Shown here: positions 42,831 through 64,000 of the stretch, one piece after another
Numbering within the stretch: position 1 is the first letter of the stretch
How the letters are laid out: each line of letters starts with the position of its first letter
Source: a virus
Lineage: Duplodnaviria; Caudoviricetes
Length of the DNA stretch: 64,000 bases
IMG/VR virus record: IMGVR_UViG_3300020192_000279
Span: 43,016 to 107,015 of that record
Strand: one strand, 5' to 3'
Program-made: the position numbers and the translations under genes
The notes under the pieces: generated by a model
Databases searched by the model: none
The model's input: the letters and a program-made list of their open reading frames with translations, nothing else
Told to the model about the DNA's origin: nothing

Positions 42831-42905
42831 TGGTATCCCTACTAGGACTTGAACCTAGATTGTCGGATTAGAAATCCGATGTTCTGTCCTTTGAACTATA
42901 GGGAC
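42831..42905 (-). tRNA. tRNA-Arg(TCT)
   Basis: Cloverleaf, CCA. Confidence 0.93.
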
Positions 42906-42911
42906 CTGTAG

Positions 42912-43002
42912 TGGTGCGTCCACCAGGATTCGAACCTGGGATGGTGATTGCTCACGTTTGATTAAGAATCAAATACCTTCGGCCTACTCGGTACATGGAC
43001 GC
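42912..43002 (-). tRNA. tRNA with CTT (Lys) anticodon and long variable arm
   Basis: TTTGA-TTCTTAA-TCAAA; V arm GTGA-GCAA-TCAC; CCA. Confidence 0.85.
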
Positions 43003-43029
43003 ATTCATATGTTGCGTGTAATTTAATGA

Positions 43030-43105
43030 TGGTAAGGGCGGCGAGACTCGAACTCGCGGTCTGCTGGTTCCAAACCAGCCGGAATAACCACTATCCTACG
43101 CCCTT
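43030..43105 (-). tRNA. tRNA-Pro(TGG)
   Basis: Cloverleaf, CCA. Confidence 0.9.
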
Positions 43106-43118
43106 ATCAGTGTTGTTT

Positions 43119-43196
43119 TGGTCCGCAGAGGTGGAATTGAACCAGACCTACCTCTCGGTTATCAGCCGAGTGCAAATACCGTTATGCTTCCTGCGG
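43119..43196 (-). tRNA. tRNA-Ile(GAT), bulged T stem
   Basis: CTCGG-CTGATAA-CCGAG, CCA. Confidence 0.8.
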
Positions 43197-43204
43197 AATT
43201 GTTT

Positions 43205-43291
43205 TGGCGGAGAGGTAGAGGAATCGAACCCCGGACCTTGCGATCCCCCCGGCATTCAAAACCGGCTGCCGACCATTCAGCGGTACCTTCC
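43205..43291 (-). tRNA. tRNA-Ser(TGA), 8/4-type fold
   Basis: 8-bp bulged acceptor, 4-bp T stem, long V arm, G73-CCA. Confidence 0.8.
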
Positions 43292-43300
43292 GTTTGTTTG

Positions 43301-43432
43301 TTAGCGACGCCGCTCCAACCAGCGAATGATGTCGTTTCCAACATGCTCGCCACGTTGACGCAGTGACTTGAAATAGGAAAGAGCTTCGGCAACGCTCATT
43401 TTTCCAGACTTGACGTTTTCACGAATTCCCAT
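43301..43432 (-). CDS. 43-aa hypothetical protein (not in ORF track)
   Basis: MGIRENVKSG...WLERRR*, directly after the 43435 stop. Confidence 0.45.
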   Translation of the reverse strand: MGIRENVKSGKMSVAEALSYFKSLRQRGEHVGNDIIRWLERRR

Positions 43433-43434
43433 TG

Positions 43435-43830
43435 CTATATATCTCTTGTGAATTTGACGTTTTTGATTAGCTCGCCAATTCCTTGGTCGAGTAGATCTTG
43501 GAATAGCTTCTTCTGTCCATGTTCATCATACACTTTATCGGCGTAGTGGTCAAGCCAAGAATAGAATTTTTCGTCTTGCTCGACATCAATCGTACGGCCA
43601 GTCAAGTGCTCGAAATAGTCACTGTCAACGCCTTTTGCGGGGCGAATGCGAATGATAATCTCACCTTTTCGAGTAGTTATGCCAGACGGAGACTTGGGCG
43701 GTTTTGGATTTTCGACACCAGATGGAATGACAATATGTCCTCCACCAGATAGCAGAATACGCTCAGCTTCCGCCTCTCGTGCCGAAAGACCGCGAGCCAA
43801 CTCGTCTTTGGTGCGTCGTAAGTGTGTCAT
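43435..43830 (-). CDS. Hypothetical protein
   Basis: Coupled ORF. Confidence 0.55.
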   Translation of the reverse strand: MTHLRRTKDELARGLSAREAEAERILLSGGGHIVIPSGVENPKPPKSPSGITTRKGEIIIRIRPAKGVDSDYFEHLTGRTIDVEQDEKFYSWLDHYADKVYDEHGQKKLFQDLLDQGIGELIKNVKFTRDI

Positions 43831-44108
43831 GATTGTTTTGCATAGCTATTTTCGATAGCGAAAAACAGTTCGTATTCGGGATTTGCGTCGTCCCATGACC
43901 ATTTACAGGCATAAAACCCACCCGTTGAACAACGATAGTTTTTTTTGTCAGTACTCAAGATGATTTCAATGAGTTCTTCTGCCGAATCTCTCAGTCTTTC
44001 GACTGACGGAGAAGTATCTTCGTGCCAGTAGGTCCAGCCTTCCTTCACCATGTGGTTATGAATAGCTTGAAAGTTGATGCCGTCAAGCAACTTGCTTTTG
44101 ATGTCCAT
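43827..44108 (-). CDS. Hypothetical phage protein
   Basis: F..IH..M....W.Y...STGGF pattern. Confidence 0.55.
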   Translation of the reverse strand: MDIKSKLLDGINFQAIHNHMVKEGWTYWHEDTSPSVERLRDSAEELIEIILSTDKKNYRCSTGGFYACKWSWDDANPEYELFFAIENSYAKQS

Positions 44109-44277
44109 CAGTTTCTCTCAAGCCACTCGATCAAGGTTTTGAGAAGGAAGAGAAGACCGACCATGCAAGCACACCACCACATGATATTGACGATGACGAA
44201 TACCCAGAAAGCGATTTTGAACTTCATGTCTCTATGATATCACTTTTCAAGCGAAGTGCAAGTATATTTTCAGATTT

Positions 44278-44367
44278 TGGCGGTAGGTGTAGGATTCGAA
44301 CCTACGGGAACTTTCGCTCCGTTCCCTTAGCAAGGGAGTGCATTCAGCCAGACTCTGCCAACCTACC
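44278..44367 (-). tRNA. tRNA-Ser(GCT)
   Basis: Cloverleaf, long V arm, CCA. Confidence 0.92.
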
Positions 44368-44368
44368 G

Positions 44369-44445
44369 TGGAGCCCAGTATAGGATTTGAACCTATGAAT
44401 TACCGATTTGCAATCGGCAGCATTGGACCGCTCTGCCAACTGGGC
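44369..44445 (-). tRNA. tRNA-Cys(GCA)
   Basis: Cloverleaf, U73, CCA. Confidence 0.93.
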
Positions 44446-44454
44446 ATTGTATAG

Positions 44455-44526
44455 TTCCTCTTCCACGATTCGAACGTGGACTAAGTGCTTCAAAGGCACT
44501 TGTGCTAGCCATTACACCAAAGAGGA
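44455..44526 (-). tRNA. tRNA-Gln(TTG), no encoded CCA
   Basis: AGTGC-CTTTGAA-GCACT. Confidence 0.9.
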
Positions 44527-44527
44527 G

Positions 44528-44602
44528 TGGTGTCGGATCCAGGAATCGAACCTGGACCAACTGACTCAGAATCAGTTGTGCTGCCAATTACACCAACCCG
44601 AT
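44528..44602 (-). tRNA. tRNA-Gln(CTG)
   Basis: ACTGA-TTCTGAG-TCAGT, CCA. Confidence 0.9.
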
Positions 44603-45021
44603 TATGTTGGCCACACGTATGGCAATGACTGATCTTCTTGCCAGCCATATTTACCATAGAATACTATATCCTTGCGGAGTAGATTTGATCTATGAGAGGC
44701 ATGAAAAGTAGGATCACCAAACCAAATTGGCATTGCTACATCTTGTGTTGGAGCAAAATGCATGTTGTTTTTATAGCCGCGTTTAATCCACTCCTCAATC
44801 ATCGTATTCATATACAAACGCAGAGCGTTTGGGTATGGACGCCACATGATCGCGGCAGGGTGATTTCTCCAACCCTTTTTTGATACGCGACCTTCAAGTG
44901 CCCAAGAGTCGTCAATCGCCATTAGCAATTGAAAAGCCTCAACACGTTGTTTACCAAGTCTACGATAGTCTAGTGTCTCTGCCGAGGCCCTAAAGTCTGG
45001 AAATGGTAAAAAGGTCTGCAT
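44602..45021 (-). CDS. Pyrimidine-dimer DNA glycosylase-like (MSMEG_6728 family)
   Basis: MQTFLP, LD..RLGKQRVEA.Q, HPA..MW, H.SH.SNLLRKD. Confidence 0.9.
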   Translation of the reverse strand: MQTFLPFPDFRASAETLDYRRLGKQRVEAFQLLMAIDDSWALEGRVSKKGWRNHPAAIMWRPYPNALRLYMNTMIEEWIKRGYKNNMHFAPTQDVAMPIWFGDPTFHASHRSNLLRKDIVFYGKYGWQEDQSLPYVWPT

Positions 45022-45072
45022 CAGAGTCCGCTAAAAGTTGTTGAATGGATGGCGACGTTATAGCCCGTATAC

Positions 45073-45450
45073 TTAGAGAGTGTACTCCCAGCTACCGTCA
45101 GAAGCAAGCACTTTCAAGGATCTGACAGCAGTTGTCATAATCGTGCCGTTTCCATTGCCAAGCCGATTATTGGGGTGCCAAAATTCTATATACATGTCAA
45201 TGCCAAGCCATCCTTGCTTGAGCATAGAGCCTCCCCACGTTGAGCCAGCAATCGAAGCCTCTGTCGGTTCCTCGAAATAGAAGCCGCCCTCGATCATGTA
45301 CTTTCCGTTTTCAAGCACTTCGATCCTGTATAGCGTGTTCCGAGTTTGAGCCTCAAGACAGGTCCCAACCGCCAGCTTATCTAGCTGAACGCCGCCATTC
45401 TTCTTGGACTCTTCGATGTTACGAACGATATCAGGATGTAGATTTGTCAT
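45073..45450 (-). CDS. Hypothetical protein
   Basis: T.NT.Y, GST.GGSM. Confidence 0.6.
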   Translation of the reverse strand: MTNLHPDIVRNIEESKKNGGVQLDKLAVGTCLEAQTRNTLYRIEVLENGKYMIEGGFYFEEPTEASIAGSTWGGSMLKQGWLGIDMYIEFWHPNNRLGNGNGTIMTTAVRSLKVLASDGSWEYTL

Positions 45451-45459
45451 TGTATTTTG

Positions 45460-45530
45460 CAGGGGCCGTAAGAATCGAACTCACGTCTATTGATTTGGAA
45501 TCAACTATATTACCACTATACGAGACCCCT
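45460..45530 (-). tRNA. tRNA-Trp(CCA), no encoded CCA end
   Basis: Cloverleaf. Confidence 0.9.
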
Positions 45531-45534
45531 ATTG

Positions 45535-45840
45535 TCATTTCCAGAGAGATAAGGTCTTGAAAAAGGCGTCCCATTCAGGACGCGGACAGAAGACTGCACC
45601 CACTACTCGATTGCCGAGAGCACTTTCCGTCATAACTACATTGTCGTCCGCAAGATCGAGTGCCTTTTCAAGCCCGTCTCGCGAAACGCTACACGTGACC
45701 TTCTTGAAAGATGAGTCAAGCCACAGCTTCATATTTGACGAACTGCCATATCGTAGGTAGCACGCGAGCGAAGCGTGAGCAGCGATGTTGACAGCGTGAC
45801 CGACGGGCACGTCGTCAAGAATCAGGATGTACATCTTCAT
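45535..45840 (-). CDS. PTH2-like peptidyl-tRNA hydrolase
   Basis: KMYIL....G.A....AHAS, W....KKV. Confidence 0.7.
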   Translation of the reverse strand: MKMYILILDDVPVGHAVNIAAHASLACYLRYGSSSNMKLWLDSSFKKVTCSVSRDGLEKALDLADDNVVMTESALGNRVVGAVFCPRPEWDAFFKTLSLWK

Positions 45841-45885
45841 CGTAAGTTCTTTCTTTTCAAGCTCGTACGCTATTCGCGAAGAGTG

Positions 45886-45960
45886 TGGTAGGCCCAACAG
45901 GATTTGAACCCGTATCGTCGGTTCCGTAGACCGAAGTTCTTCCAGTTGAACTATGAGCCC
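45886..45960 (-). tRNA. tRNA-Arg(ACG)
   Basis: Cloverleaf, CCA. Confidence 0.93.
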
Positions 45961-45971
45961 GTGTTGTTATT

Positions 45972-46047
45972 TGGGGTGGATAAGGGGTTTCGATCCCCCA
46001 CTTACAGCGTCACAAGCTGTCGTGCAGGCCACTACACTATATCCACC
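45972..46047 (-). tRNA. tRNA-His(GTG)
   Basis: G-1:C73, CCA. Confidence 0.93.
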
Positions 46048-46051
46048 GTGC

Positions 46052-46438
46052 TTATTCTTCGACTGCCTTCGCAAAAGCAGCCAGTCCATCTTGTGTGTCG
46101 ATGTGATAGCAGTAGGGTACTCCATCTTCACCGAACCAAGTCTCGGGCGGACGACATGCACAGTCTCCGCCCGCTCTTGCTACTTGGCCGTGTGTCTCGA
46201 AAAGGCGTTTTGCCGTAGCCATTGTCATCGGTTTATACGGCGGCTTCCATTCCGCGACCCAATACCGCCAAGCTCGCTTAACGATCCATCCCCGTTTTTC
46301 AAACCATCCAAAGATGTCGGTTTTTACTTCCCCGGCTTGTAATAGCCTAAAGGGAAAAACGGGGATGCCCGCTTGTTCCAATTCTCTGCGACAGACTTCG
46401 TCGCACATTTCTTTGGATTGACCGGCAAGATTACGCAT
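46052..46438 (-). CDS. Hypothetical phage protein
   Basis: NLAG, EL..AGI, RAW.YW, YHIDT..GL. Confidence 0.65.
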   Translation of the reverse strand: MRNLAGQSKEMCDEVCRRELEQAGIPVFPFRLLQAGEVKTDIFGWFEKRGWIVKRAWRYWVAEWKPPYKPMTMATAKRLFETHGQVARAGGDCACRPPETWFGEDGVPYCYHIDTQDGLAAFAKAVEE

Positions 46439-46480
46439 GCTGATATCATAGCTCGCCAAAGCGAGCTAGTCAAGAAAAGT

Positions 46481-46565
46481 TGGTAGGAACAGTCGGGATC
46501 GAACCGACACGCCGTTAGGCACATCATTTTAAGTGATGGGCGTCTGCCAATTCCGCCATGTCCCC
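46481..46565 (-). tRNA. tRNA-Leu(TAA)
   Basis: Cloverleaf, CCA. Confidence 0.93.
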
Positions 46566-46571
46566 GTGTAT

Positions 46572-46648
46572 TGGTCCGCTATCTAGGAATTGAACCTAGC
46601 CCTGAGGTTAATAAGACCCCTGCATGACGACCAGTGTGCTAATAGCGG
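46572..46648 (-). tRNA. tRNA-Ile(TAT) with U37
   Basis: GGGGT-CTTATTA-ACCTC, CCA. Confidence 0.8.
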
Positions 46649-47083
46649 TCAGTCCAGTGTACAAGCCATTGCATTCGAGGTGTTGAACGTGATCGCACCA
46701 GAGTTCGTGTCACGGTACCACCACTGAAAAAGGAGCGTCGTGCCAAGCGGCATCAGCGTCAAGTCAACCTGACGAGTTGCGTTGCCGTTCACGGTAGCAG
46801 TCGGCCCACCGACGCGAACGAACTGCCCGAGCGGATTGATACATAACGTGCCGTTACCAAAAGGAACGTTGAACTGGGTCGTGCCACACGTCAGTTGTGC
46901 AAACGACTGAGGCATTGCGTTCGTCAGCGTACAGCCGAGGTTGTTGTCGATTCGCGTTAGCGAGCCGGTGTAGTCACAATGAGCAACCAATCCAAGAGAA
47001 TTGGGCTGCGAATCGCAGTAGTTGTAAGCGGAGCCAGCGGAGGCGGTAAGTGCTAGGAGGCACACAGCGATGATGTTCTTCAT
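46649..47083 (-). CDS. Secreted protein with YC..NS.G / PFGNG.LC / Q.WYRD domain
   Basis: Signal peptide plus motifs; leaderless promoter. Confidence 0.7.
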   Translation of the reverse strand: MKNIIAVCLLALTASAGSAYNYCDSQPNSLGLVAHCDYTGSLTRIDNNLGCTLTNAMPQSFAQLTCGTTQFNVPFGNGTLCINPLGQFVRVGGPTATVNGNATRQVDLTLMPLGTTLLFQWWYRDTNSGAITFNTSNAMACTLD

Positions 47084-47089
47084 GCTCTA

Positions 47090-47117
47090 ATGATACATCA
47101 TTTTCGCGGTTTGTCAA
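47090..47117 (-). promoter_or_regulatory. Sigma70-type promoter, leaderless
   Basis: TTGACA-N16-TATCAT-N6-ATG. Confidence 0.8.
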
Positions 47118-47125
47118 GCAAAAAA

Positions 47126-47695
47126 TCACTCTAAGCCGATGTACGAGCCGACGCCGATGGTCGCGTTCTCGACGATGGTCACGTTCTTGCCGACGGTTGA
47201 GTCATCGCCGATGATCGCGTGCTCGCCGATGGTCGCGTGCTCGCCGATGGTCACGTTCCAGCCGATGTACGAGTCCTCGCCGATGGTCGCGTCCCGACCG
47301 ATGGTCGAACCCCGACCGATTATCACGTACTCGCCGATGTTCGCGTACTCGCCGATGTTCGAGTACGAGCCGATGGTCACGTTCTTACCGATGGTAACGT
47401 TCTCGCCGATGGTCACGTGCTCGCCGACGGTCGCGTTATTGCCGACGGTCGCGTTCCTACCGATGTTCGAGCCCCAGCCGATGTTCGAGTACGAGCCGAT
47501 GTACGAGCCGTCACCGATGTTCGAACTCCGGCCGATGGTCGCGTGCTCGCCGATGGTCACGTACTTACCGATGGTAACGTTCTCGCCGATGGTCACGTGC
47601 TCGCCGATGGTCGAGTACGAGCCGATGTACAAGTTCTCCCCGACGTTGACTTGAACGGTCTTGCCGTTCGGGTTCGTGTGCGTGATGGTTTTCAT
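47126..47695 (-). CDS. Left-handed beta-helix hexapeptide-repeat protein
   Basis: About 28 xxxx[IV]G repeats encoded by 18-bp units. Confidence 0.85.
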   Translation of the reverse strand: MKTITHTNPNGKTVQVNVGENLYIGSYSTIGEHVTIGENVTIGKYVTIGEHATIGRSSNIGDGSYIGSYSNIGWGSNIGRNATVGNNATVGEHVTIGENVTIGKNVTIGSYSNIGEYANIGEYVIIGRGSTIGRDATIGEDSYIGWNVTIGEHATIGEHAIIGDDSTVGKNVTIVENATIGVGSYIGLE

Positions 47696-47701
47696 GCTTC
47701 A

Positions 47702-47729
47702 ATTATACATCATTCTTGCGGTTCGTCAA
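47702..47729 (-). promoter_or_regulatory. Sigma70-type promoter, leaderless
   Basis: TTGACG-N16-TATAAT-N6-ATG. Confidence 0.8.
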
Positions 47730-47737
47730 GCAAAAAA

Positions 47738-48358
47738 TCATTCATACGTCACTCTAATTCTCAGTAACGTAATGTTCTCGTTCCAGTCAGTACCCCACGT
47801 TCCCCAATGTCCATGAGGAACGCCGACAATTGTTTCTTGAAAGCGTGGGCTGAAATTAATCGTGACATTACCACTACCTTCAAACAGCATCATTTTTACT
47901 GGATTGGTGCATACCGTCCACGCATCCACACTTGTCACGCCAGCAATATGACCCTGATAACCGCTAGGACCATCAAAGTCAACTCGACCGTCAAATGGCG
48001 ATAGACTGTCTTGATGAATATAAGTCCAGCCAATCGGCTCTGGACTGTCATTTAGTCTATTACGAAATATGGGATTGAATCCATTGAATGGTTCAATGCT
48101 CCAAAATTGTCTATCTCGCCAGATATGGAGAGTATTTGGAAGATATGCTTGCGACACGTTTTCAAGCCTATAGTCAAGACTCAAGCATTGACCTGGACCG
48201 ATACGTTGAAATTCCACCTTCGTAACGTGTCCGTTCACGCGAGGAATGGTAACGGGAAAATTGAAATTGTCGATGACGATACCGTTATCACAAAGATTGA
48301 TAACACCTGGACCTGGACGCTCGAAAGTGACGATGGTTGCAAGTAATAGTGTAAGCAT
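47738..48358 (-). CDS. Secreted protein, choice-of-anchor E-like
   Basis: Hydrophobic N-terminus; FDG.VDF.G.SG motif. Confidence 0.5.
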   Translation of the reverse strand: MLTLLLATIVTFERPGPGVINLCDNGIVIDNFNFPVTIPRVNGHVTKVEFQRIGPGQCLSLDYRLENVSQAYLPNTLHIWRDRQFWSIEPFNGFNPIFRNRLNDSPEPIGWTYIHQDSLSPFDGRVDFDGPSGYQGHIAGVTSVDAWTVCTNPVKMMLFEGSGNVTINFSPRFQETIVGVPHGHWGTWGTDWNENITLLRIRVTYE

Positions 48359-48371
48359 GTTTAATATGGTT

Positions 48372-48460
48372 TGGCTAGGGAGGTAGGTTACGATCCTACA
48401 GTTGAGATTGCTCTCGCTACATTAACAGTGTAGTGCGTCTACCAGTTCCGCCACCCCCTA
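48372..48460 (-). tRNA. tRNA with GTT (Asn) anticodon and long variable arm
   Basis: CTACA-CTGTTAA-TGTAG; V arm GAGA-GCAA-TCTC; G73-CCA. Confidence 0.85.
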
Positions 48461-48480
48461 GTGTTTTGTTTTTGTTGTAT

Positions 48481-48554
48481 TGGTAGGCAATGAGGGAATT
48501 GAACCCCCGACTTCTGGATGTAAACCAGACGTTTTACCACTAGACTAATCGCCC
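48481..48554 (-). tRNA. tRNA-Val(TAC)
   Basis: Cloverleaf, CCA. Confidence 0.93.
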
Positions 48555-48562
48555 GTGCTAAG

Positions 48563-48889
48563 TCAATCCCAAAGATGGAAAAAGTACTCTCGGAAAAGAT
48601 CAAGGCCAGTTTTAACCTCAGCCTGCTCTTCCTCAGTCAGCATGTACATTGCACCCTCTGAATCGACAATCAGCTTGAATGCCCTATGCATCTTTTCAAG
48701 CATGACAAGCCACGCTTCGTTACCGCCATCCAACCCCATTGGAAAGCCATGATTATAAGTGTCAATAAAAGCTCGCAGACGAGGCTCGATGAATGCAGCG
48801 ACTGTAGTATTAAGAGACCACAATTCGCTATCGTCAAATCCGCGAGTAAGACGTTGCCACAAGAAGTGTATCTTGCGAGATAATTTCAT
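48563..48889 (-). CDS. Conserved phage hypothetical protein
   Basis: WQR..RGFDD.E.WSL...PRL..F...W...L..M..AF..GL.LF..Y...LWD. Confidence 0.7.
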   Translation of the reverse strand: MKLSRKIHFLWQRLTRGFDDSELWSLNTTVAAFIEPRLRAFIDTYNHGFPMGLDGGNEAWLVMLEKMHRAFKLIVDSEGAMYMLTEEEQAEVKTGLDLFREYFFHLWD

Positions 48890-48907
48890 ATTAATCCTAA
48901 AGTGTAT

Positions 48908-48984
48908 TGGAGCCATCGGTGGGCCACGATCCCACAACCTATCGCTTACAAAGCGATTGCACCGCCCACTTGTGCTACGATGGC
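48908..48984 (-). tRNA. tRNA-Thr(TGT)
   Basis: Cloverleaf, T loop ATCGTGG, CCA. Confidence 0.9.
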
Positions 48985-49025
48985 ATTTTCTTTTTACGAA
49001 TGCGTTTAGCATTCTTATATGATGT

Positions 49026-49078
49026 TGGTAGACCGTGACGGTGATGCTCTATCATACACCCTCTTACGAGGGTGTGGG
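49026..49078 (-). pseudogene. 3' half of a tRNA-like gene with closed anticodon hairpin
   Basis: ACACCCTC-GTAA-GAGGGTGT, T-like arm, ACCA; 5' half missing. Confidence 0.45.
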
Positions 49079-49110
49079 CTTGAAAAAGAAGAATTACATT
49101 TTCAAGTGTA

Positions 49111-49174
49111 TGGTGCCTCCCCGACGACCTTCTGCTCTTCACGCAGACGCTACTACTAACTGAGCTACAGAAGC
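49111..49174 (-). pseudogene. tRNA-Phe(GAA) lacking T loop and 3' T strand
   Basis: TCTGC-GTGAAGA-GCAGA then AGGTCGTCGG-GGAGGC-ACCA. Confidence 0.7.
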
Positions 49175-49190
49175 AAAAGCATGCTTGTAT

Positions 49191-49268
49191 TGGTGGGGAA
49201 GGCAGGACTCGAACCTGCGACCTTAAGGGTATACACCCTTGTTGCTCTCCCAACTGAGCTACTTCCCC
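49191..49268 (-). ncRNA. tRNA-like RNA with collapsed anticodon loop
   Basis: Perfect acceptor, D and T arms, CCA; AAGGGT-GTAT-ACCCTT. Confidence 0.8.
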
Positions 49269-49291
49269 ATAGTGGAGTTAATGTACTTTGA

Positions 49292-49368
49292 TGGTGGACC
49301 GGGGGAGTGACGATCTCCCGACTTTCGGATGCAAACCGAATGTTTTACCAACTTAGAACTACCAGCCC
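49292..49368 (-). tRNA. tRNA-Ala(TGC)
   Basis: G3:U70, CCA. Confidence 0.93.
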
Positions 49369-49377
49369 ATCATTTGG

Positions 49378-49483
49378 CTTGAAAGTGCTTATGTAGGATT
49401 CGAACCCACATCATCCCGAAAGGGGGATTCCGCTATGCGTTTTTGTGCAAGCTCTACCAGTTGAGCTAATAAACGCTTTCAAG
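49378..49483 (-). ncRNA. tRNA-like element with extended acceptor, aberrant anticodon region, no CCA
   Basis: Canonical D (TAGCTCAACTGGTAGAGC) and T (GTGGGTTCGAATCCTAC) arms. Confidence 0.65.
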
Positions 49484-49488
49484 TATAT

Positions 49489-49565
49489 TGGAGTCTCTTG
49501 AGGGATTCGAACCCTCACTGTCAGCTTGGAAGGCTGTCGTGCTAGCCGTTAAACACCAAAGAGAC
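49489..49565 (-). tRNA. tRNA-Gly(TCC)
   Basis: Cloverleaf, U73, CCA. Confidence 0.9.
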
Positions 49566-49878
49566 GCATATCTTTACTATGTTTTTCAAGAGCATTTTCT
49601 AATTCCATAATGATCTTGCCATAGACAAGCTCTAAATGGTCAGGGACATTGTGACGATGATTCGAACCACGCTTTTCGTGGTACAGGTTCAATACAGCGG
49701 TGATCCGCAGAGCATTGTCACGCACCTTACGGGCCGCAACCCATGATCGCTTCACGTTGTCAGGCGTTTTAGCGTGATCTAACCAGTAAGAACTGTGACC
49801 AACTTTATAAGGCCCAGTCCTGCGTTCTTTTTTGAGGGCCTTTTGCCTCTTAGCCATTTGCTTAATTAGGTTCTTCAA
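49549..49878 (-). CDS. Basic hypothetical protein
   Basis: 109-aa ORF; start uncertain. Confidence 0.5.
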   Translation of the reverse strand: MKNLIKQMAKRQKALKKERRTGPYKVGHSSYWLDHAKTPDNVKRSWVAARKVRDNALRITAVLNLYHEKRGSNHRHNVPDHLELVYGKIIMELENALEKHSKDMRLFGV

Positions 49879-49952
49879 TGCGATCTACGTATTCATAGCG
49901 GTTCACTCCGTTTATTGTTGAGCTTGAAAAGCCAAGTGCATTTCAAGTGTAT

Positions 49953-50028
49953 TGGTGCGGGTAGTGGGACTCGAACCCACGCACTGACCGTTTAGAGCGG
50001 TCTGATCTACCAACTGAACTATACCCGC
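49953..50028 (-). tRNA. Amber suppressor tRNA (CTA anticodon)
   Basis: GACCG-CTCTAAA-CGGTC in a canonical cloverleaf with CCA. Confidence 0.9.
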
Positions 50029-50038
50029 AAAATTGGAA

Positions 50039-50296
50039 TCACACAGGTTTCCAAGTCTTAGTTATTGTCTCTACTTGCTTTACTTCTTCGCATTCAAGAG
50101 AATACTCAAAGTCATAACCATCAAAATAAGTACGGCTGACCACCAGTTCGTAATAAGGCCCGTCCCCTTCTCTAAATATAACACCAAGGACAGACCATTT
50201 CCCTTGGTCTTCCCACTCTCCGGTTTCTATAACCGTATACTTATCCGATTCGTCGGTGAAGATTTCAGCCGCTTCTGATTGTGTTAATTGTATCAT
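50039..50296 (-). CDS. Acidic hypothetical phage protein
   Basis: W...GKW....IF...EV..VE.....W. Confidence 0.6.
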   Translation of the reverse strand: MIQLTQSEAAEIFTDESDKYTVIETGEWEDQGKWSVLGVIFREGDGPYYELVVSRTYFDGYDFEYSLECEEVKQVETITKTWKPV

Positions 50297-50327
50297 AGTT
50301 TCCTGTGGTAAATCAATGCTTGAAAGA

Positions 50328-50417
50328 TGGTGGATCAGGAGGGACTCGAACCCCCGGTGTTAACTCAAAAGAGAAGTGGTCTACAGCCACTTGCCATCGC
50401 CTCTCGGCCACCGATCC
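50328..50417 (-). tRNA. tRNA-Tyr(GTA)
   Basis: Cloverleaf, long V arm, CCA. Confidence 0.92.
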
Positions 50418-50428: not shown

Positions 50429-50503
50429 TGGCCTCCTCGGTGAGTGTTTCACTCACGTATTAGCCGGGATACGGCTAACATCCTAGCCTAGATGACAAGG
50501 AGG
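50429..50503 (-). ncRNA. tRNA-like RNA (Glu/Asp-like body) with collapsed anticodon
   Basis: TTAGCCG-TATCC-CGGCTAA; G73-CCA. Confidence 0.7.
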
Positions 50504-59003: not shown

Positions 59004-59252
59004 CTAAGTCAAGTTCTTTTCAAGTTCCTTACGCAGAGCCTCCACACACTTATCACAAACCTTACCAGAGACATTATTGAGGCGACCGAGGTCGATACCC
59101 ATGAGTTTGGTGCCGCAAATGGCGATTGTGCCTTCCTTGGCGGGTTTATCCCCGTTGCGGATGATGTGGGCCAGCGGAGGCCAGCAGGACGGAACCTCGT
59201 CCACCATGGGTTCGATTACGGGCTCAGTCAGTGTTTCTTTTATCATTTTCAA
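59004..59252 (-). CDS. DUF3039-like Zn-binding protein
   Basis: H......AICG......C..C. Confidence 0.5.
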   Translation of the reverse strand: MKMIKETLTEPVIEPMVDEVPSCWPPLAHIIRNGDKPAKEGTIAICGTKLMGIDLGRLNNVSGKVCDKCVEALRKELEKNLT

Positions 59253-59736
59253 GCTCTTTCAGAACTGCCCTTAATAGAGTCATATGACCAATAAGAGTAG
59301 TTATGACTGTGGGATTGTCATAGTACATATTCATGATGAGTTCGATGGCGGGAATCGAGTTACGGACCTTAGTGACTAAATTGTCTTCCTTGGTATTACT
59401 CATTTTCATTTTCAAGCTACTCCAAAACCATAGTCAATGTCAATGTACAGATCCTCGTGCGTATTCGCTTTGGGGCGACGCTCATTAGGGTCTATCTTAG
59501 CCGATCCTTTTCTTTTCGTTATAGTTTTTGTTTTCCTGTGCTCACACACAAACACTAACAAAGCTCATTCTCCGCCGGGCAGATTCTTGCAATGGCTCGA
59601 AACGGAATTCTCCAGGATGTCGGCTCGCCCACAAGCACTTCGGCCCCGACCGTGTGTTATCGGACCTCCCTCGCCTGAGTGCGTTTTGCGATCGTGCAGA
59701 TACAAAAAAACACGGCCAGCGTTTGCTTGAAATAGA

Positions 59737-59877
59737 TCAGCTAGCGTCCCTGGACGCAGCTTCCAGCCAACCAGCCTCCCAATCGTCGTGGTCGCTAGTA
59801 CCTTCTCGATACGGGTTATCCTGTAGCCCCTCACCGTCACAGTACGCATCGTAGCCTTCGTCGTATTCTGAACTCAT
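59737..59877 (-). CDS. Acidic Rmf/CrpP-fold peptide, leaderless
   Basis: Y.EGY.AY..G....NPY.......W..GW. Confidence 0.65.
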   Translation of the reverse strand: MSSEYDEGYDAYCDGEGLQDNPYREGTSDHDDWEAGWLEAASRDAS

Positions 59878-59935
59878 GTTTGCATGATAATACTTTTTCG
59901 AGCTATTGTCAAGAAGTTCTTGAAAAAGAAAAAAG

Positions 59936-60030
59936 TGGTTGCACACCTACCCTCTTGAGTGTACTATCTCGTGTCGTCGGGGTGATATCCTGTAATGGGG
60001 CACCTTGGGCGACACGATCTTTTGAATGCA
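59936..60030 (-). ncRNA. Candidate CCA-ended structured RNA
   Basis: TGCATTC/GTGTGCA-A-CCA, 8-bp inner stem, U tract downstream. Confidence 0.4.
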
Positions 60031-60164
60031 GGAGCCCAGCTAGGGCTCGCAAGATAGGTGTCCGCAAACCCCAATCCGGCGGTTTGGCACAATCCAGCAA
60101 ATTGTGGCGTTTTGCGTGTAAACGCTATACGTCTGTTGCCCGTCCTGCACTTTTCAAGGAATAG

Positions 60165-60192
60165 CTTGACATTACGAGGAATCGTGATATGA
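60165..60192 (+). promoter_or_regulatory. Promoter for tRNA-Met
   Basis: TTGACA-N16-TATGAT. Confidence 0.7.
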
Positions 60193-60278
60193 TAGAAGTG
60201 CCAGACTGATGGCTTGAAAAAGTCACCACCTAACTATGCGATTGCCAGTATCGTCAAACTGGTGACAACTTGAAACAC

Positions 60279-60357
60279 TGCGGAGTAGAGAAGCCTGGTT
60301 GTTCTCGTCTGCCTCATAAGCAGAAGATCGTGGGTTCAAATCCCACCTCCGCTACCA
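60279..60357 (+). tRNA. tRNA-Met(CAT), initiator-like
   Basis: U1xU72 mismatch, A11-U24, CTCATAA loop, CCA. Confidence 0.9.
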
Positions 60358-60479
60358 TCTAACTTAGAAATTGGGCCATGTAAAGAAGCGGATAAAGCCT
60401 ACTGACCGTCAAGCCTCAGTAGCCACAAAACCGCAGCCAGTGACGGCTGGAAACGATCAATATAAGATCGTGCCCAACG

Positions 60480-60513
60480 GAGACATCGGGGGTCAAACCC
60501 TGGTGTCTCTTTT
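60480..60513 (+). terminator. Rho-independent terminator
   Basis: GAGACATCGGG...CCTGGTGTCTC-TTTT. Confidence 0.75.
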
Positions 60514-60828
60514 CGTTTGCTTTGTAGCTCGAAAAGGTAGAGTTACTAAGGGAACTATATGCCGCTGGCGTCTCTTCGACACGAACGCTTGGTATTCCTA
60601 AACCAACGGCGTTAGGCATATTAGAGACCGGGGGTCGAGAAAATGGGGTAATAGATATTCCCCTGGGAGTACCGGGGTACGTAAAAAATACGTCTAAGAC
60701 TTAAAAATGAAATTCTGAATAGACATGAGAGAAAACTCTGGAAGTCTGTACAATTCGCTTACTTAGCGTTTCCCAGAAATTTCAGCGGCTTCGTCACCGT
60801 CCTTACTAGTGGCTTGAAAAGGAAGAAC

Positions 60829-60892
60829 TGGGGGCGGGCGTGCTCAACTCCTATCCCCATAGGAGGAGCACCACCCGTCGCCGTGGCCCGCC
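60829..60892 (-). ncRNA. CCA-ended acceptor-stem RNA, copy 1
   Basis: GGCGGGC...GCCCGCC-C-CCA with long inner hairpin. Confidence 0.55.
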
Positions 60893-61144
60893 TTCGCACA
60901 CCCTATCTTACTTCATTTCAAGCACACCGGGTGTCTTGAAGTAGTCTTTTTGGTAAGTGTCCCTAGTAAGTATGGGGTGTGTTTCTTGAAAAGGCTGGAA
61001 GCCTGAGCATCGTCATTACTAGCAATCCCCAGAACTCTGGAAGCTTCGCTACCGTCCTTACTATGCGGCGATCCCAAAAACTCTGGCAGTCTGTACAATC
61101 GCCTTACTAGTGTCTAAAGCAGAAGTGGCTTGAAAAGGAAGAAC

Positions 61145-61215
61145 TGGGGGCGGGCGTGCTCAACTCCTATCCCCATAGGAGGAGCACCACCCGTCGCCGT
61201 GGCCCTTGGCCCGCC
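61145..61215 (-). ncRNA. CCA-ended acceptor-stem RNA, copy 2
   Basis: Same fold; promoter TTGACA-N16-TAAGAT at 61256-61229. Confidence 0.6.
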
Positions 61216-61425
61216 TTCGCAACACCCTATCTTACTTCATTTTCAAGCGATGTCAACAAGGATCCACGATTTTCGTCCCTGATGTCGGATCTTCCAGGGC
61301 GACCGTATCTCGTTGACAGTTACATGTTATCATCGTTTTCAAGCGATGTCAAACAGCCTATATGTTTTATGCTTACATGGTTTTGTCGGTTTGACAAGTA
61401 AAATCATGGATTTATCAGAAACTGT

Positions 61426-61502
61426 TGGAGCGGGTCTCTCCCCGCGTCAAGTCTAGTTACCGAGCCCTTCGGCATGGCGACGCGACTTTCCGTTTGAACC
61501 GC
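61426..61502 (-). ncRNA. CCA-ended RNA with Gly-type acceptor
   Basis: GCGGTTC/GACCCGC-T-CCA; inner CGCGTC/GACGCG stem. Confidence 0.55.
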
Positions 61503-61531
61503 TTGTTACGGAACCGCAACAGAGAGGCAGA

Positions 61532-61627
61532 TGGATGCCCTGAAAGGATTTACACCTAAGTCTTTCGCACTATTTCCTAGGACTGCGTGCGGCTGTTCTG
61601 TTTCTTGTGTTTTTGAACTACAGGGCG
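61532..61627 (-). ncRNA. Expanded tRNA-like RNA with CCA
   Basis: GCCCTG/CAGGGC, TA-GTTC..GAAC D stem, T-like loop, promoter TTGACT-N16-TATGAT directly upstream. Confidence 0.65.
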
Positions 61628-61769
61628 GACATATCATACCATCGTTTTCAAGATAGTCAAGCGGAACGCTTGAAAAAGAAATCGCCCGTCTCGTTTGACA
61701 TTCCCACGGATCGGCGTATCATATGGAGTACCGCCAATCGGCACGAACCAACAACAACGGAGAATCGAC

Positions 61770-62654
61770 ATGATGCAAGCAACGACCGACTTCCTGAACC
61801 GCGAGGGTATGAACTACAGCGTGCAGGCCATGCTGGCACCGCACCCCGTGCATCGTGATCAGAACGTCGAGGGACAGTACCACCTCGTTCGCTCTACGGA
61901 CAATGTCGTGATCTCGCCGAAAACGGTCTCGAAAAAGTACGTCGCGACGTGCCCGATCGACATGATCGCCCCGATCGCCCCTCTGATCGCCGAGGGCTGG
62001 GTGACGCCGGAGCGAGGCTTCATGCTCTCCGGCGGGTCGCACGAGATGCTGGTGTTCAAGATCGACGGCGGCAAGCTCGACAACAGCGGCAAGGTCGACG
62101 GTGAGGATTGGGACCACTTTTTCCAGCTTCACAACTTCCAGGGGTCCGGATCGTTCTTCGGCTCGCTCTTCGCCCGCCGTCAGATCTGCTCGAACGGTGC
62201 CGTTCGCATCGTGAGCAAGGGTAACGGGTTCCGTCTCCGCCACATGGGAGCCCTTCAAGCGAAGTACGAGGATGCCATGCGAACGTGGGAAGATATCCAG
62301 GTCGAGATCCGCAAGCTCTCGAAGCGGATGACGGTCTGGAATGGTCAGACGCTGACCTACTCCGAAGCCGTCGCCCTCTTCCACATGATTTACGATGTCG
62401 AGGATCCGAACGACATCGCGACGCGGACGGAAAACGAACTCAACTTCGCGATCAGCGAGTTCTCGAATCCGGGCCGTGGCACCTACGGCAAGACCGTTGC
62501 GGATGTCTACAACGCGATCACGGCGACGAACACGCACTATGCTCCCAAGAGTAGCCGCGAGACGGAAACGAAGCGTATGTCGAGCCTCTTCAATCCGAAC
62601 GGTTCGCGGAACCTTCTCGAAGGTCGGGCAATCGAAGTGCTGTCGAGCCTCTGA
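61770..62654 (+). CDS. DUF932/DUF945-like early protein
   Basis: VR.TD, VS..Y, N...G.GS, R.IC.NG, RH, YNAIT...H; promoter at 61695. Confidence 0.7.
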   Translation: MMQATTDFLNREGMNYSVQAMLAPHPVHRDQNVEGQYHLVRSTDNVVISPKTVSKKYVATCPIDMIAPIAPLIAEGWVTPERGFMLSGGSHEMLVFKIDGGKLDNSGKVDGEDWDHFFQLHNFQGSGSFFGSLFARRQICSNGAVRIVSKGNGFRLRHMGALQAKYEDAMRTWEDIQVEIRKLSKRMTVWNGQTLTYSEAVALFHMIYDVEDPNDIATRTENELNFAISEFSNPGRGTYGKTVADVYNAITATNTHYAPKSSRETETKRMSSLFNPNGSRNLLEGRAIEVLSSL

Positions 62655-62661
62655 TTAGCCT

Positions 62662-62692
62662 CGGGGTGGCGGTTGACAAGACCGCCACTCCG
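62662..62692 (+). promoter_or_regulatory. Hairpin with -35 box in loop; promoter TTGACA-N17-TATACT
   Basis: CGGGGTGGCGGT-TGACAAG-ACCGCCACTCCG. Confidence 0.7.
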
Positions 62693-62954
62693 GACTATAC
62701 TCTAACCTCATGGCACATCGCTGGGATCGTGAATATAATCGGGCTTCTCGACCTCCGCCCGACCTCATTGGTGACGCCAAAGGCGTTCTCACGGAATGGG
62801 TTATCTTGGCACTAGGGGCCGCATTACTGGGGTGCTTCATCAAGTTTATGGGATGGAACACGGACGACTGACCTAGGGGGCGGCTCAAAAGAGCCGCCCC
62901 CAATTCTTGAAAAGGAGTTGACAGCCGACACTTTCAAGGGTATGATTGGTCACT

Positions 62955-63240: not shown

Positions 63241-63548
63241 CGTATCTATACGGCTGCCATTTTGGCAGCCATAATCCTACGGTGGCCCCCGGTCCTCCAC
63301 CATGACGCTGAACTATATCACACGAAACGTGTTACGTCAAGTGGAATCTTCTTCCGCTTTTCTGTCCGATGCACTGTAAAATGAAGCCGCAAACGGCCCT
63401 GGGAGCCCGCAGGCTGCACGATTGACCCCCTCCCCCGCATGGCCTTCTATCTAGGGCGAGCGTGCTATTGGCACGCAACGTACCAGGGCTCCACGGGGCA
63501 AACTTAGTTTTTCTCTTGCTTTTTCGCACTTATAGGGTATCCTAGGAC

Positions 63549-64000
63549 ATGAATACCATCACGCACACGAACCCGAACGGCAAGACCGTTCAAGTCAACG
63601 TCGGCGAGCACGTGACCATCGGCGAGAACGTTACCATCGGTAAGAACGTGACCATCGGCGAGAACGTGACCATCGGCAATAACGCGAACGTCGGCGAATA
63701 CGTGCTCATCGGCCAGGACGCGACCATCGGCCAGGACGTGACCATCGGCCAGGACGTGACCATCGGCGAGCACGCGATCATCGGCTCGTACTCGAACATC
63801 GGCTCGTACATCGGCGAGCACTCAACCGTCGGCGAGCACGCGAACATCGGTAGGAACGCGACCGTCGGCAAGAACGTGACCATCGGCGAGCACGCGAACA
63901 TCGGCAAATACGTGCTCATCGGCGAGCACGCGACTATCGGCAAGAACGTGACCATCGGCAATAACGCGACCGTCGGCGAGTACGCGAACATCGGCCTAGT
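63549..64000 (+). CDS. Second hexapeptide-repeat beta-helix protein, 3'-partial (not in ORF track)
   Basis: MNTITHTNPNGKTVQVNVG then xxxx[IV]G repeats; runs off the window. Confidence 0.85.
   Translation, partial: MNTITHTNPNGKTVQVNVGEHVTIGENVTIGKNVTIGENVTIGNNANVGEYVLIGQDATIGQDVTIGQDVTIGEHAIIGSYSNIGSYIGEHSTVGEHANIGRNATVGKNVTIGEHANIGKYVLIGEHATIGKNVTIGNNATVGEYANIGL

What the first reader, a model, noticed from the sequence alone, without database searches (positions are those of the whole stretch)
61532..61660. Expanded tRNA-like RNA predicted to start at its acceptor stem
Seen: (C)GCCCTG-TA-GTTC-[16-nt A-rich loop]-GAAC-AGC-CGCAC-[16-nt loop]-GTGCG-AAAGAC-TTAGG-TGTAAAT-CCTTT-CAGGGCA-T-CCA. The tRNA element order is kept, but the D and anticodon loops are about doubled and position 1:72 is a C-A mismatch. 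The promoter TTGACT-N16-TATGAT puts the predicted start at the first or second stem base, so no RNase P leader would be needed (inference).
Basis: partly seen in the sequence, partly recalled or inferred. Interest (0 to 1): 0.75.

Follow-up and report, generated by a model that had tools for sequence, protein, structure and literature searches.

The report
tRNA-derived small RNA cassette in a phage
A large uncultivated phage carries, directly behind a strong promoter, a 95-base RNA that descends from an arginine tRNA but has loops too large to decode, so it is either a tRNA mimic with a new job or a decaying tRNA copy.

Summary
The described sequence is present on the minus strand (61532-61627). 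The promoter is TTGACT-16-TATGAT, and the predicted start G61626 is the first base of the acceptor-like helix. The "T stem" has only 3 standard pairs, not 5.

The fold alone is not beyond chance. An equally loose cloverleaf+CCA descriptor matches 0.8 times per shuffled genome. ARAGORN and Rfam do not call it.

The sequence is nevertheless tRNA-derived:
- A model built from it finds the phage's own tRNA-Arg(UCU) (32 bits, E 3.7e-6).
- A model built from 18 of the phage's tRNAs finds it end to end (19.2 bits, E 0.003), though a filters-off run gave only 7.7 bits.

It lies in a 2.5 kb non-coding island of reiterated promoters, each followed by a structured RNA. Two neighbouring modules show compensatory changes in relatives.

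The element is kept in 7 of 7 close relatives and 4 of 4 metagenome runs. Changes occur only at three loop positions. Relatives at 70% and 47% neighbour-protein identity carry other cargo behind the same promoter.

Best reading (0.45): a leaderless, non-decoding tRNA mimic. Main rival (0.3): a tRNA pseudogene. No expression data could be obtained.

The parts
61633..61660 (-). Promoter P1: -35 TTGACT (61660-61655), 16-nt spacer holding CTTGAAAACGA, -10 TATGAT (61638-61633)
   Evidence: 10 of 12 consensus positions, TG before the -10. It has 0 of 33 mismatches against L008, L005 and L003. It is also conserved in L010 and L011, where the cargo differs.
61532..61627 (-). tRNA-Arg-derived small RNA, 95-96 nt, from predicted start G61626 (or C61627) to the encoded CCA at 61534-61532
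   Evidence: Sequence. MFE fold equals the cloverleaf. R1 finds tRNA-Arg(UCU) at 32.1 bits. R2 finds this stretch end to end at 19.2 bits, E 0.0028, but only 7.7 bits with filters off. No ARAGORN or Rfam call.
61621..61626 (-). Acceptor-like helix, 5' strand GCCCUG, pairing with CAGGGC 61542-61537. C61627 lies opposite A61536 (C1.A72 in a 7-pair register).
   Evidence: The same GCCCUG/CAGGGC acceptor occurs in 4 real phage tRNAs among 16 pattern hits.
61595..61618 (-). D-like arm: GUUC, 16-nt A-rich loop, GAAC. Near-identical to the D arm of tRNA-Arg(UCU) at 42831-42905 apart from about 8 extra loop bases.
   Evidence: Alignments (23 identical positions in the 5' part).
61566..61591 (-). Central ('anticodon-like') hairpin: CGCAC, 16-nt loop GCAGUCCUAGGAAAUA (holds the palindrome UCCUAGGA), GUGCG
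   Evidence: The only variable positions of the RNA are G61586, U61572 and A61571, at the base of this loop.
61545..61557 (-). T-like arm reduced to AGG, UGUAAAU, CCU (3 pairs), flanked by U.U mismatches
   Evidence: Compare CUAGG-UUCAAGU-CCUAG in tRNA-Arg(UCU).
61532..61536 (-). Single-stranded 3' tail A-U-C-C-A
   Evidence: Most of the phage's tRNA genes as printed also end in an encoded CCA.
61353..61531 (-). Variable spacer downstream of the RNA, with no terminator-like site. It carries a 2-nt indel, a 49-nt indel and a replaced distal segment in the other haplotype.
61252..61352 (-). Neighbouring cassette: promoter P2 (61352-61324) plus module B RNA (61317-61252)
   Evidence: Lost in L003, L005 and L006 by recombination between promoter repeats.
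61124..61256 (-). Neighbouring cassette: promoter P3 (61256-61229) plus module C hairpin (61205-61124). A second exact copy lies at 60889-60808.
61695..62654 (+). Divergent promoter (61695-61722) and DUF932-family gene (61770-62654), used as the anchor to find relatives

Best explanation
The element is a small RNA gene that descends from a phage arginine tRNA of the UCU type. It has lost the features needed for decoding and is kept as a tRNA mimic.

Shown:
- It is sequence-related to the phage's own tRNA-Arg.
- It keeps three fully Watson-Crick helices and an encoded CCA.
- It sits directly behind one copy of a reiterated sigma-70-type promoter, in an island of promoter-plus-structured-RNA cassettes.
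- It is retained with only loop changes in every close relative examined.

Inferred:
- Host RNA polymerase starts at G61626, the first base of the acceptor-like helix. The RNA would then carry a 5' triphosphate and need no RNase P cut.
- The 3' end is made by trimming the variable spacer back to the helix and its AUCCA tail, as for bacterial tRNAs with encoded CCA.
- The result is a stable RNA of about 95 nt.
- It has a 16-nt central loop and lacks both partners of the D-loop/T-loop contact, so it cannot read codons.
- I take it to act by being bound in place of a real tRNA. The most likely role is a decoy or inhibitor for a tRNA-directed host enzyme, for example an anticodon nuclease of an anti-phage defence. 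The fast-changing bases at the foot of the central loop would be the contested surface.
For: tRNA descent:
- R1 (built from the candidate) searched over 150,425 bases gave 5 matches at E<=10. These were itself, then tRNA-Arg(TCT) at 32.1 bits (E 3.7e-6), tRNA-Arg(ACG) at 23.2 bits (E 1e-3) and tRNA-Cys at 19.8 bits (E 9e-3).
- It shares 45 identical positions with tRNA-Arg(TCT) in the two alignable parts, the best of 27 tRNAs.
- Sequence-only test: 7 of 1000 shuffles and 2 of 917 random genome pieces reach the score.
- R2 (18 phage tRNAs, candidate excluded) finds 61532-61627 end to end at 19.2 bits, E 0.0028. It is the 28th of 28 matches, after 27 tRNA or tRNA-like hits. The L008 copy ranks 15th of 19, after 14 tRNAs.

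Structure: the MFE of the exact 95-nt RNA is the cloverleaf, z -2.18.

Promoter and start:
- Module B next door also begins at the predicted +1 of its promoter with the first base of its closing helix.

Context: the two neighbouring cassettes are real structured RNAs. Compensatory changes occur in 5 of 21 pairs and 4 of 21 pairs.

Retention:
- Present in 7 of 7 loci whose neighbour protein is 93-100% identical and in 4 of 4 runs laid, with no indel.
- Module B is missing from 3 of those 7 loci, and the spacer just downstream carries indels.
- Against L008: 2 of 96 mismatches in the RNA versus 67 of 885 in the adjacent gene (Fisher p 0.055).
- All three variable positions lie at the base of the central loop, in three alleles.

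Phage context: it also encodes a CCA-adding enzyme and two RNA ligases, so it invests in tRNA upkeep.
Against: - No transcript evidence: no RNA run holds the stretch.
- ARAGORN at default, -ps and -ps80 finds nothing. At -ps60 it makes 3 calls in 361 nt, one with these ends but another inner fold.
- Rfam finds nothing even at E<=10.
- R2 with filters off gives only 7.7 bits, E 1.4, rank 8 of 27.
- The fold is not exceptional: z -1.22 to -2.18, and the descriptor matches about 0.8 times per shuffled genome.
- No copy was found beyond the closest clade. R1 finds none in L002 or L010-L028. L010 and L011 keep the promoter but hold other cargo. So promoter conservation does not depend on this RNA.
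- With only 3 variable sites no covariation test is possible.
- The contrast with the spacer is weaker than the automatic count suggests. MAFFT gave 14 of 75 mismatches, but by eye the homologous 57 nt have 4 mismatches and the rest is non-homologous.
- Against L003 and L005 the RNA (2 of 96) is not more conserved than the gene (4 and 10 of 885).
- The region recombines between strains, which blurs rate arguments.
- The phage holds other aberrant tRNA-like genes (49384-49476 and 49111-49174), as expected if tRNA copies simply decay.
- The decoy role has no direct support.
Confidence: 0.45

Rival explanations
1. It is a decaying tRNA pseudogene. A copy of a tRNA-Arg gene landed behind, or travelled with, one copy of the reiterated promoter. 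It lost function through loop insertions and T-loop changes, and persists only because the clade is young.
For: - tRNA descent together with loss of every decoding feature.
- Two of five T-stem pairs are broken.
- The element is restricted to relatives whose neighbour protein is at least 93% identical.
- The promoter is kept in L010 and L011 without it.
- Other aberrant tRNA-like genes occur in the same phage.
- Against L003 and L005 the RNA is not more conserved than the gene.
Against: - Three helices (15 pairs) are all Watson-Crick despite large loop changes.
- No indel in 7 of 7 loci and 4 of 4 runs, while the adjacent spacer and module B are rearranged or lost.
- Every observed change lies in one loop.
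- The predicted start falls exactly on the helix, as for module B.
- It sits in an island whose other cassettes are structured RNAs under selection.
Confidence: 0.3
2. It is not a free-standing RNA. It is the structured 5' end of a longer early non-coding transcript that runs on through the spacer and modules B and C. The tRNA-like fold would serve as a processing or stabilising signal: a tRNA-type cut releases or protects what follows.
For: - No terminator-like site on the minus strand between 61626 and 60449.
- Three tandem promoters point the same way.
- Downstream modules are conserved structured RNAs.
- That tRNA-like folds act as processing signals in other systems is recalled knowledge and comes from no call.
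Against: - The sequence directly downstream is the least conserved part of the unit.
- Modules B and C each have their own promoter.
- In L010 and L011 the same position holds unrelated cargo.
Confidence: 0.15
3. It is a chance cloverleaf in a promoter-proximal leader, with no tRNA ancestry.
For: - The loose descriptor matches about 0.8 times per shuffled genome.
- Fold z-scores are weak.
- No ARAGORN or Rfam call.
- R2 with filters off gives 7.7 bits.
Against: - Reciprocal model hits.
- Near-identical D arm and similar T arm to tRNA-Arg(UCU).
- Sequence-only p of about 0.002-0.007.
Confidence: 0.06
4. The signal belongs to a 41-codon reading frame on the plus strand (61531-61656), which has a GAGAGG motif shortly upstream of its ATG.
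For: The ORF is listed. The purine-rich motif is seen.
Against: - No plus-strand promoter-like site upstream.
- The frame runs into promoter P1.
- By my own codon reading of the sequence, the strain variants would give Leu to Pro and Ala to Val (variants).
- It does not account for the tRNA similarity on the other strand.
Confidence: 0.03

Closest known systems
Canonical phage tRNA-Arg(UCU) (Rfam RF00005), e.g. the phage's own gene at 42831-42905
   Same: Acceptor, D arm, T arm and CCA are alignable. It shares 45 identical positions, the D arm is nearly identical, and the element order is the same.
   Different: D loop 16 nt instead of 8. Central loop 16 nt instead of 7. Two extra bases before the central stem. 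T loop UGUAAAU. T stem of 3 pairs. No Rfam or ARAGORN call. Sits 11 kb from the tRNA cluster, directly behind a promoter.
tRNA pseudogenes and aberrant tRNA-like genes of tRNA-rich phages
   Same: A tRNA-derived sequence that gene finders reject. The same phage has other aberrant members (49384-49476 and 49111-49174). Candidate tRNA-like structures in IMG/VR are reported in PMC10690425 (passages read).
   Different: Here the helices are intact, the gene is leaderless behind a near-consensus promoter, and it lies in an island of other structured RNAs.
Phage T4 RNAC and RNAD
   Same: Small phage RNAs of still unknown function (PMC9697503, passages read). That they lie by the T4 tRNA cluster and have tRNA-like ends is recalled, not checked here.
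   Different: No sequence comparison was made. In that paper the T4 RNAs are classed as late RNAs, whereas this element has a host-type promoter.
Leaderless tRNA genes of Nanoarchaeum equitans
   Same: Transcription is placed so that the RNA starts at the mature 5' end, making RNase P unnecessary (PMC10100707 and PMC3491384, search listing and start of abstract only).
   Different: Those are working tRNAs in an archaeon that lacks RNase P. Here it is one non-decoding RNA in a phage whose other tRNAs have leaders: tRNA-Met has 79 nt between the predicted start and its first base, and tRNA-Leu about 5 nt.
Phage tRNAs that counter tRNA-targeting defences
   Same: Phage-encoded tRNA-type RNAs whose anticodon loops differ from the host's and which act in conflicts with tRNA nucleases (PMC10264068, PMC11555353, PMC12409363: listing and start of abstract only).
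   Different: Those are functional decoding tRNAs that replace cleaved host tRNAs. This one could act only as a non-decoding decoy, which is not shown.
tRNA-like domains of tmRNA, bacterial Y RNAs (YrlA) and plant-virus 3' tRNA-like structures
   Same: Non-decoding RNAs that mimic part of a tRNA (recalled).
   Different: ARAGORN tmRNA mode is negative. The only Tymo_tRNA-like match in the region lies on the real tRNA-Met. No YrlA or Y RNA match appears in the Rfam scans. Those families lack this four-arm layout.

Membership tests
tRNA (Rfam RF00005; decoding tRNA) | Score at or above the family threshold of a general tRNA model or finder | tested here: not met
   No RF00005 match at gathering score nor at E<=10 in 60000-62200. 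ARAGORN finds none at default, -ps or -ps80.
tRNA (Rfam RF00005; decoding tRNA) | Cloverleaf with 7-pair acceptor, D arm, anticodon arm and T arm in order, discriminator and CCA | tested here: inconclusive
   Order and CCA are present. Acceptor has 6 pairs plus C.A, D stem 4 of 4, central stem 5 of 5, T stem 3 of 5.
tRNA (Rfam RF00005; decoding tRNA) | 7-nt anticodon loop (U33, purine 37) | tested here: not met
   The loop is 16 nt. A GUCCUAG stretch inside it resembles an Arg(CCU) loop but is not closed by pairs.
tRNA (Rfam RF00005; decoding tRNA) | T loop U54-U55-C56 and D loop G18-G19 for the elbow contact | tested here: not met
   The T loop is UGUAAAU. The D loop AAAAACACAAGAAACA has no GG.
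tRNA-derived sequence (homology to the phage's tRNA-Arg) | Significant reciprocal similarity to bona fide tRNAs | tested here: met
   R1 to tRNA-Arg(TCT): 32.1 bits, E 3.7e-6. R2 to the candidate: 19.2 bits, E 0.0028. Sequence-only: 7 of 1000 and 2 of 917. Caveats: 7.7 bits with filters off, and the E-values are rough.
Independent sigma-70-type transcription unit | -35 and -10 hexamers at the right spacing, with a start site at the RNA's 5' end | tested here: met
   TTGACT-16-TATGAT, 10 of 12. +7 from the -10 is G61626. This is a consensus match only.
Independent sigma-70-type transcription unit | A transcript with these ends exists | not testable with these tools
   No RNA run holds the stretch. 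The runs laid are DNA contigs.
Structured RNA under selection | Compensatory changes in the helices across relatives | tested here: inconclusive
   There are only 3 variable positions in 8 sequences, all in one loop. No copy exists in more distant relatives.
tmRNA | tRNA-like domain plus tag reading frame, detected by ARAGORN -m | tested here: not met
   0 genes with -m -ps80.

The most novel reading that the evidence does not exclude
A phage-encoded, leaderless, non-decoding mimic of tRNA-Arg that works as a decoy or inhibitor of a host tRNA-directed defence nuclease. It would be one cassette of a promoter-delimited array of small counter-defence RNAs that is shuffled by recombination between the promoter repeats. 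The fast-changing bases at the foot of its central loop would mark the arms race.
Probability: 0.15. Interest if true: 0.8.

Novelty: new variant of a known kind. Interest (0 to 1): 0.5.

Why it matters
Phage tRNA genes are now seen as tools against host defences that cut tRNAs. An RNA that keeps the tRNA frame and CCA end but cannot decode would be a different solution: mimicry instead of replacement.

It also comes with a simple, testable design, because the promoter starts the RNA at its mature 5' end.

The surrounding island is of interest too. Reiterated promoters are each followed by a different structured RNA, and cassettes are gained and lost between strains. If it is transcribed as predicted, the island is a compact source of new phage non-coding RNAs.

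If the element is only a pseudogene, it still documents how tRNA copies decay in tRNA-rich phages, and it warns that cloverleaf-plus-CCA patterns alone are near chance level.

Tried and rejected
Searches for relatives:
- Phage record search with 60400-62700: no match.
- Relatives by single proteins in IMG/VR: none for the DUF932 protein or RIIA. With the alignment A1, only one 24%-identity locus.
- 'Relatives' mode is not available for a virus record.

Expression:
- Sequencing runs: 22 listed and no RNA holder, so nothing can be said about expression.

Pattern scans for distant copies:
- GCCCTGTAGTTC-N45-75-CAGGGC gave 16 stretches. Four are ordinary tRNAs and 12 are unrelated.
- TAGGTGTAAATCCT gave 119 stretches. 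None resembles the element.
- The central-hairpin pattern gave 0 in IMG/VR and 2 in bacterial genomes. The R1 match in L165 (13.5 bits) is carried by the pattern itself, and the rest does not fit.

Other tests:
- Antisense targets: no complementarity of 12 nt or more elsewhere in the 107 kb record.
- ARAGORN at -ps60 calls the stretch 'tRNA-Cys', but with 2 other calls in 361 nt. This is not evidence.
- An attP-type tRNA fragment was rejected because the T loop is not that of a working tRNA and no integrase was seen nearby. This is a judgement, not a search.
- TAG recoding was checked because of the CUA suppressor tRNA. Reading TAG as sense lengthens frames no more than reading TAA as sense does.

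Tools and files not available:
- Paper supplements were not opened. The structure lists of PMC10690425 might hold this island.

Full report
**Where the window lies.** The window is the last 64 kb of a 107 kb virus record rated about 50% complete. The record holds 24 ARAGORN tRNA genes. A model of the phage's own tRNAs finds 27 tRNA or tRNA-like matches. The record also encodes a CCA-adding enzyme, two RNA ligases, an RIIA-like protein and a ribonucleotide reductase. The finding lies in a stretch of about 2.5 kb (roughly 59250-61770) without convincing reading frames. This stretch separates leftward genes from a rightward DUF932-family gene at 61770-62654.

**The observation.**
- The promoter is TTGACT (61660-61655), 16 nt, TATGAT (61638-61633).
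- Seven bases on is G61626, the first base of GCCCUG. This pairs with CAGGGC at 61542-61537.
- Inside lie GUUC/GAAC around a 16-nt A-rich loop, CGCAC/GUGCG around a 16-nt loop holding the palindrome UCCUAGGA, and a T-like hairpin.
- The tail is A-U-C-C-A, ending at 61532.
- One correction: TTAGG/CCTTT makes three standard pairs, not five.
- The exact 95-nt RNA folds by minimum free energy into this cloverleaf (-22.5 kcal/mol, z -2.18, 4 of 200 shuffles as good). With a few flanking bases z is only -1.22.

**Is it chance?** As a structure, it could be.
- I wrote a descriptor as loose as this element needs: a 6-pair closing helix, a 4-pair and a 5-pair hairpin with loops of 7-18 nt, and a 3-pair hairpin with a 7-nt loop.
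- It matches 38 places in the record. Eleven have a CCA at the right offset: nine annotated tRNAs, the candidate, and 50433-50502.
- Twenty dinucleotide shuffles gave 23 matches on average and 0.8 with CCA. Eight of the 20 had at least one.
- ARAGORN and Rfam do not call the element. At a 60% threshold ARAGORN calls it with the same ends, but alongside two other calls in 361 nt.

**It is tRNA-derived.** The sequence settles what the structure cannot.
- A covariance model built from the candidate and its two strain variants (R1) was searched over 150 kb. Its three best non-self matches are the phage's tRNA-Arg(TCT) (32.1 bits, E 3.7e-6), tRNA-Arg(ACG) and tRNA-Cys.
- The D arm is nearly identical to that of tRNA-Arg(UCU), apart from about eight extra loop bases. 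The T arm and the ends are similar. There are 45 identical positions, the most among 27 tRNAs.
- A sequence-only test puts the score in the top 7 of 1000 shuffles and 2 of 917 random genome pieces.
- In reverse, a model of 18 of the phage's tRNAs (R2) finds exactly 61532-61627, end to end, at 19.2 bits (E 0.0028). It is the only match after 27 tRNA-type hits. The L008 copy behaves the same way.
- A filters-off run of R2 scored only 7.7 bits (E 1.4, rank 8 of 27), so the reciprocal evidence depends on the scoring mode.
- The same acceptor and D stem occur in ordinary tRNAs of other phages, among them a tRNA-Arg(UCU).
- I conclude with about 0.9 confidence that the element descends from a tRNA of the Arg type.

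**It is not a tRNA.** The central loop has 16 bases. The T loop is UGUAAAU. The D loop has no GG. The two outer T-stem pairs are U.U. These fail the defining features, so I do not file it as a tRNA.

**Surroundings.**
- The promoter is one of three near-identical minus-strand copies, at 61660, 61352 and 61256. All carry CTTGAAAA in the spacer, a word that is over-represented in the window (34 matches against 3.6 expected).
- Behind the second copy lies a 66-nt RNA (module B, 61317-61252). It also begins at the predicted +1 with the first base of its closing helix.
- A relative (L011) carries a homologue of module B with 4 of 21 pairs changed on both sides.
- Behind the third copy lies a long hairpin (module C), present twice as exact 82-nt copies. 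It is conserved in L008, L010, L011 and L019 with 5 of 21 pairs compensated.
- No minus-strand terminator-like site occurs before 60449.
- The island is thus an array of promoter-plus-structured-RNA cassettes.

**Relatives.**
- The phage record search found nothing, and single-protein scans of IMG/VR found nothing.
- An alignment of 24 DUF932 homologues found 26 metagenome loci.
- The seven loci whose protein is 93-100% identical (L003-L009) all carry the RNA. So do all four runs laid.
- Only three positions vary: G61586, U61572 and A61571. All lie at the foot of the central loop, in three alleles.
- L010 (70%) and L011 (47%) keep both divergent promoters, but similarity to the window stops at 61630 and 61651, at or just before the start site. 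Other cargo follows.
- R1 finds no copy in L002 or L010-L028, and only one in the phage's own record.
- Cassettes come and go by recombination between the promoter repeats. Module B is absent from L003, L005 and L006, and a joint 61239 to 61336 with 17 shared bases is seen in two runs.

**Selection.**
- Against L008 the RNA has 2 of 96 mismatches, the promoter 0 of 33, and the neighbouring gene 67 of 885 (Fisher p 0.055).
- The spacer just downstream has a 2-nt indel, a 49-nt indel and a replaced distal part.
- The automatic count of 14 of 75 mismatches in the spacer is inflated by non-homologous sequence. By eye the homologous 57 nt have 4.
- Against L003 and L005 the RNA is not more conserved than the gene.
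- L005 and L008 share one RNA-plus-spacer allele although their genes differ, so the region recombines.
- The evidence for purifying selection is therefore suggestive only. What stands is that the element never carries an indel or a stem change while its neighbours do.

**Mechanism.** My best reading (0.45) is a leaderless, non-decoding tRNA mimic.
- It is started at the helix by host polymerase and trimmed to its CCA tail.
- It is then bound by tRNA-directed proteins in place of a tRNA.
- The specific role of decoy against a tRNA-cutting defence is inference. It is prompted by the current view of phage tRNAs (PMC10264068, PMC11555353, PMC12409363: listings and abstract starts only) and by the variable loop foot.
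- Rivals: a pseudogene (0.3), a 5' processing or stabilising module of a longer transcript (0.15), chance (0.06), and a plus-strand 41-codon frame (0.03).

**Comparison with known systems.**
- It works like other tRNA mimics, but it is not a member of tRNA, tmRNA or any Rfam family.
- Leaderless tRNA transcription has a precedent in Nanoarchaeum (PMC10100707, PMC3491384: listings only).
- T4 RNAC and RNAD are phage small RNAs of unknown function (PMC9697503, passages read).

Noticed in passing
window 61252-61317 (-), with promoter 61324-61352: Module B is a 66-nt RNA that starts at the predicted +1 of its promoter. The 3' strand of its closing helix (GUUGAC) overlaps the -35 of the next promoter. 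A homologue sits behind the first promoter of L011 with 4 of 21 pairs changed on both sides. A further pairing GAUCC/GGAUC (GCCAC/GUGGC in L011) would make a pseudoknot. There is no Rfam match.
   Followed up: partly
window 61124-61205 and 60808-60889 (-): Module C occurs as two exact 82-nt copies of a long hairpin with an invariant GUGCUCC...GAGCACGCCC core. It is conserved in L008, L010, L011 and L019, with 5 of 21 pairs compensated. It may be a protein or RNase III-type recognition hairpin. That suggestion is a guess.
   Followed up: partly
window 60500-61530; loci L003-L009: The island is rearranged between near-identical strains. Joints were seen at 60516 to 60916, 61239 to 61336 (17 shared bases, between promoter repeats), 61352 to 61426 and 61458 to 61523. 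Cassettes are gained and lost by recombination at the reiterated promoters.
   Followed up: partly
window 60279-60357 (+), promoter 60166-60193: This tRNA-Met has a U1.U72 mismatch, G2:C71, C3:G70 and A73, which is initiator-like at the acceptor end. It lacks three G-C pairs in the anticodon stem. It is conserved upstream of the DUF932 gene in L005, L008-L011, L019, L021 and L028.
   Followed up: partly
window 41598-50417 (-): A large tRNA cluster includes a CUA (amber suppressor) tRNA at 49953-50028, a gene with a 4-base anticodon call (49191-49268), a 93-nt aberrant tRNA-like gene (49384-49476) and an extra tRNA-like match at 49111-49174. A crude frame test gave no sign that TAG is read as sense.
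   Followed up: partly
window 50433-50502 (-): The loose cloverleaf+CCA descriptor also matches here, next to tRNA-Tyr. Neither ARAGORN nor Rfam calls it. It may be chance.
   Followed up: no
window 61355-61421: A 67-nt piece of the spacer occurs in other contig contexts in runs X2-X5, with unrelated sequence on both sides. This suggests another shared module in a related phage.
   Followed up: no
window 60732-61108: Repeats of the type TAGTAAGG(N)...CCAGAG occur 4-5 times on the minus strand between the module C copies. The TAGTAAGG word also follows module C in L010 and L019. They could be a phage-specific promoter or a processing motif.
   Followed up: no
whole window: CTTGAAAAYGA (one mismatch allowed) occurs 34 times against 3.6 expected. 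It forms the spacer of the strong promoters and also stands alone.
   Followed up: no
window 63544-63995 (+): A reading frame is made of 18-nt (six-residue) repeats of the type NVTIGE. Its copy number and sequence vary greatly between strains.
   Followed up: no
window 41699-41726 (-): A perfect consensus promoter (TTGACA-16-TATAAT) puts the predicted start about 6 nt before tRNA-Leu(UAG) at 41686. Very short tRNA leaders therefore exist elsewhere in this phage.
   Followed up: no
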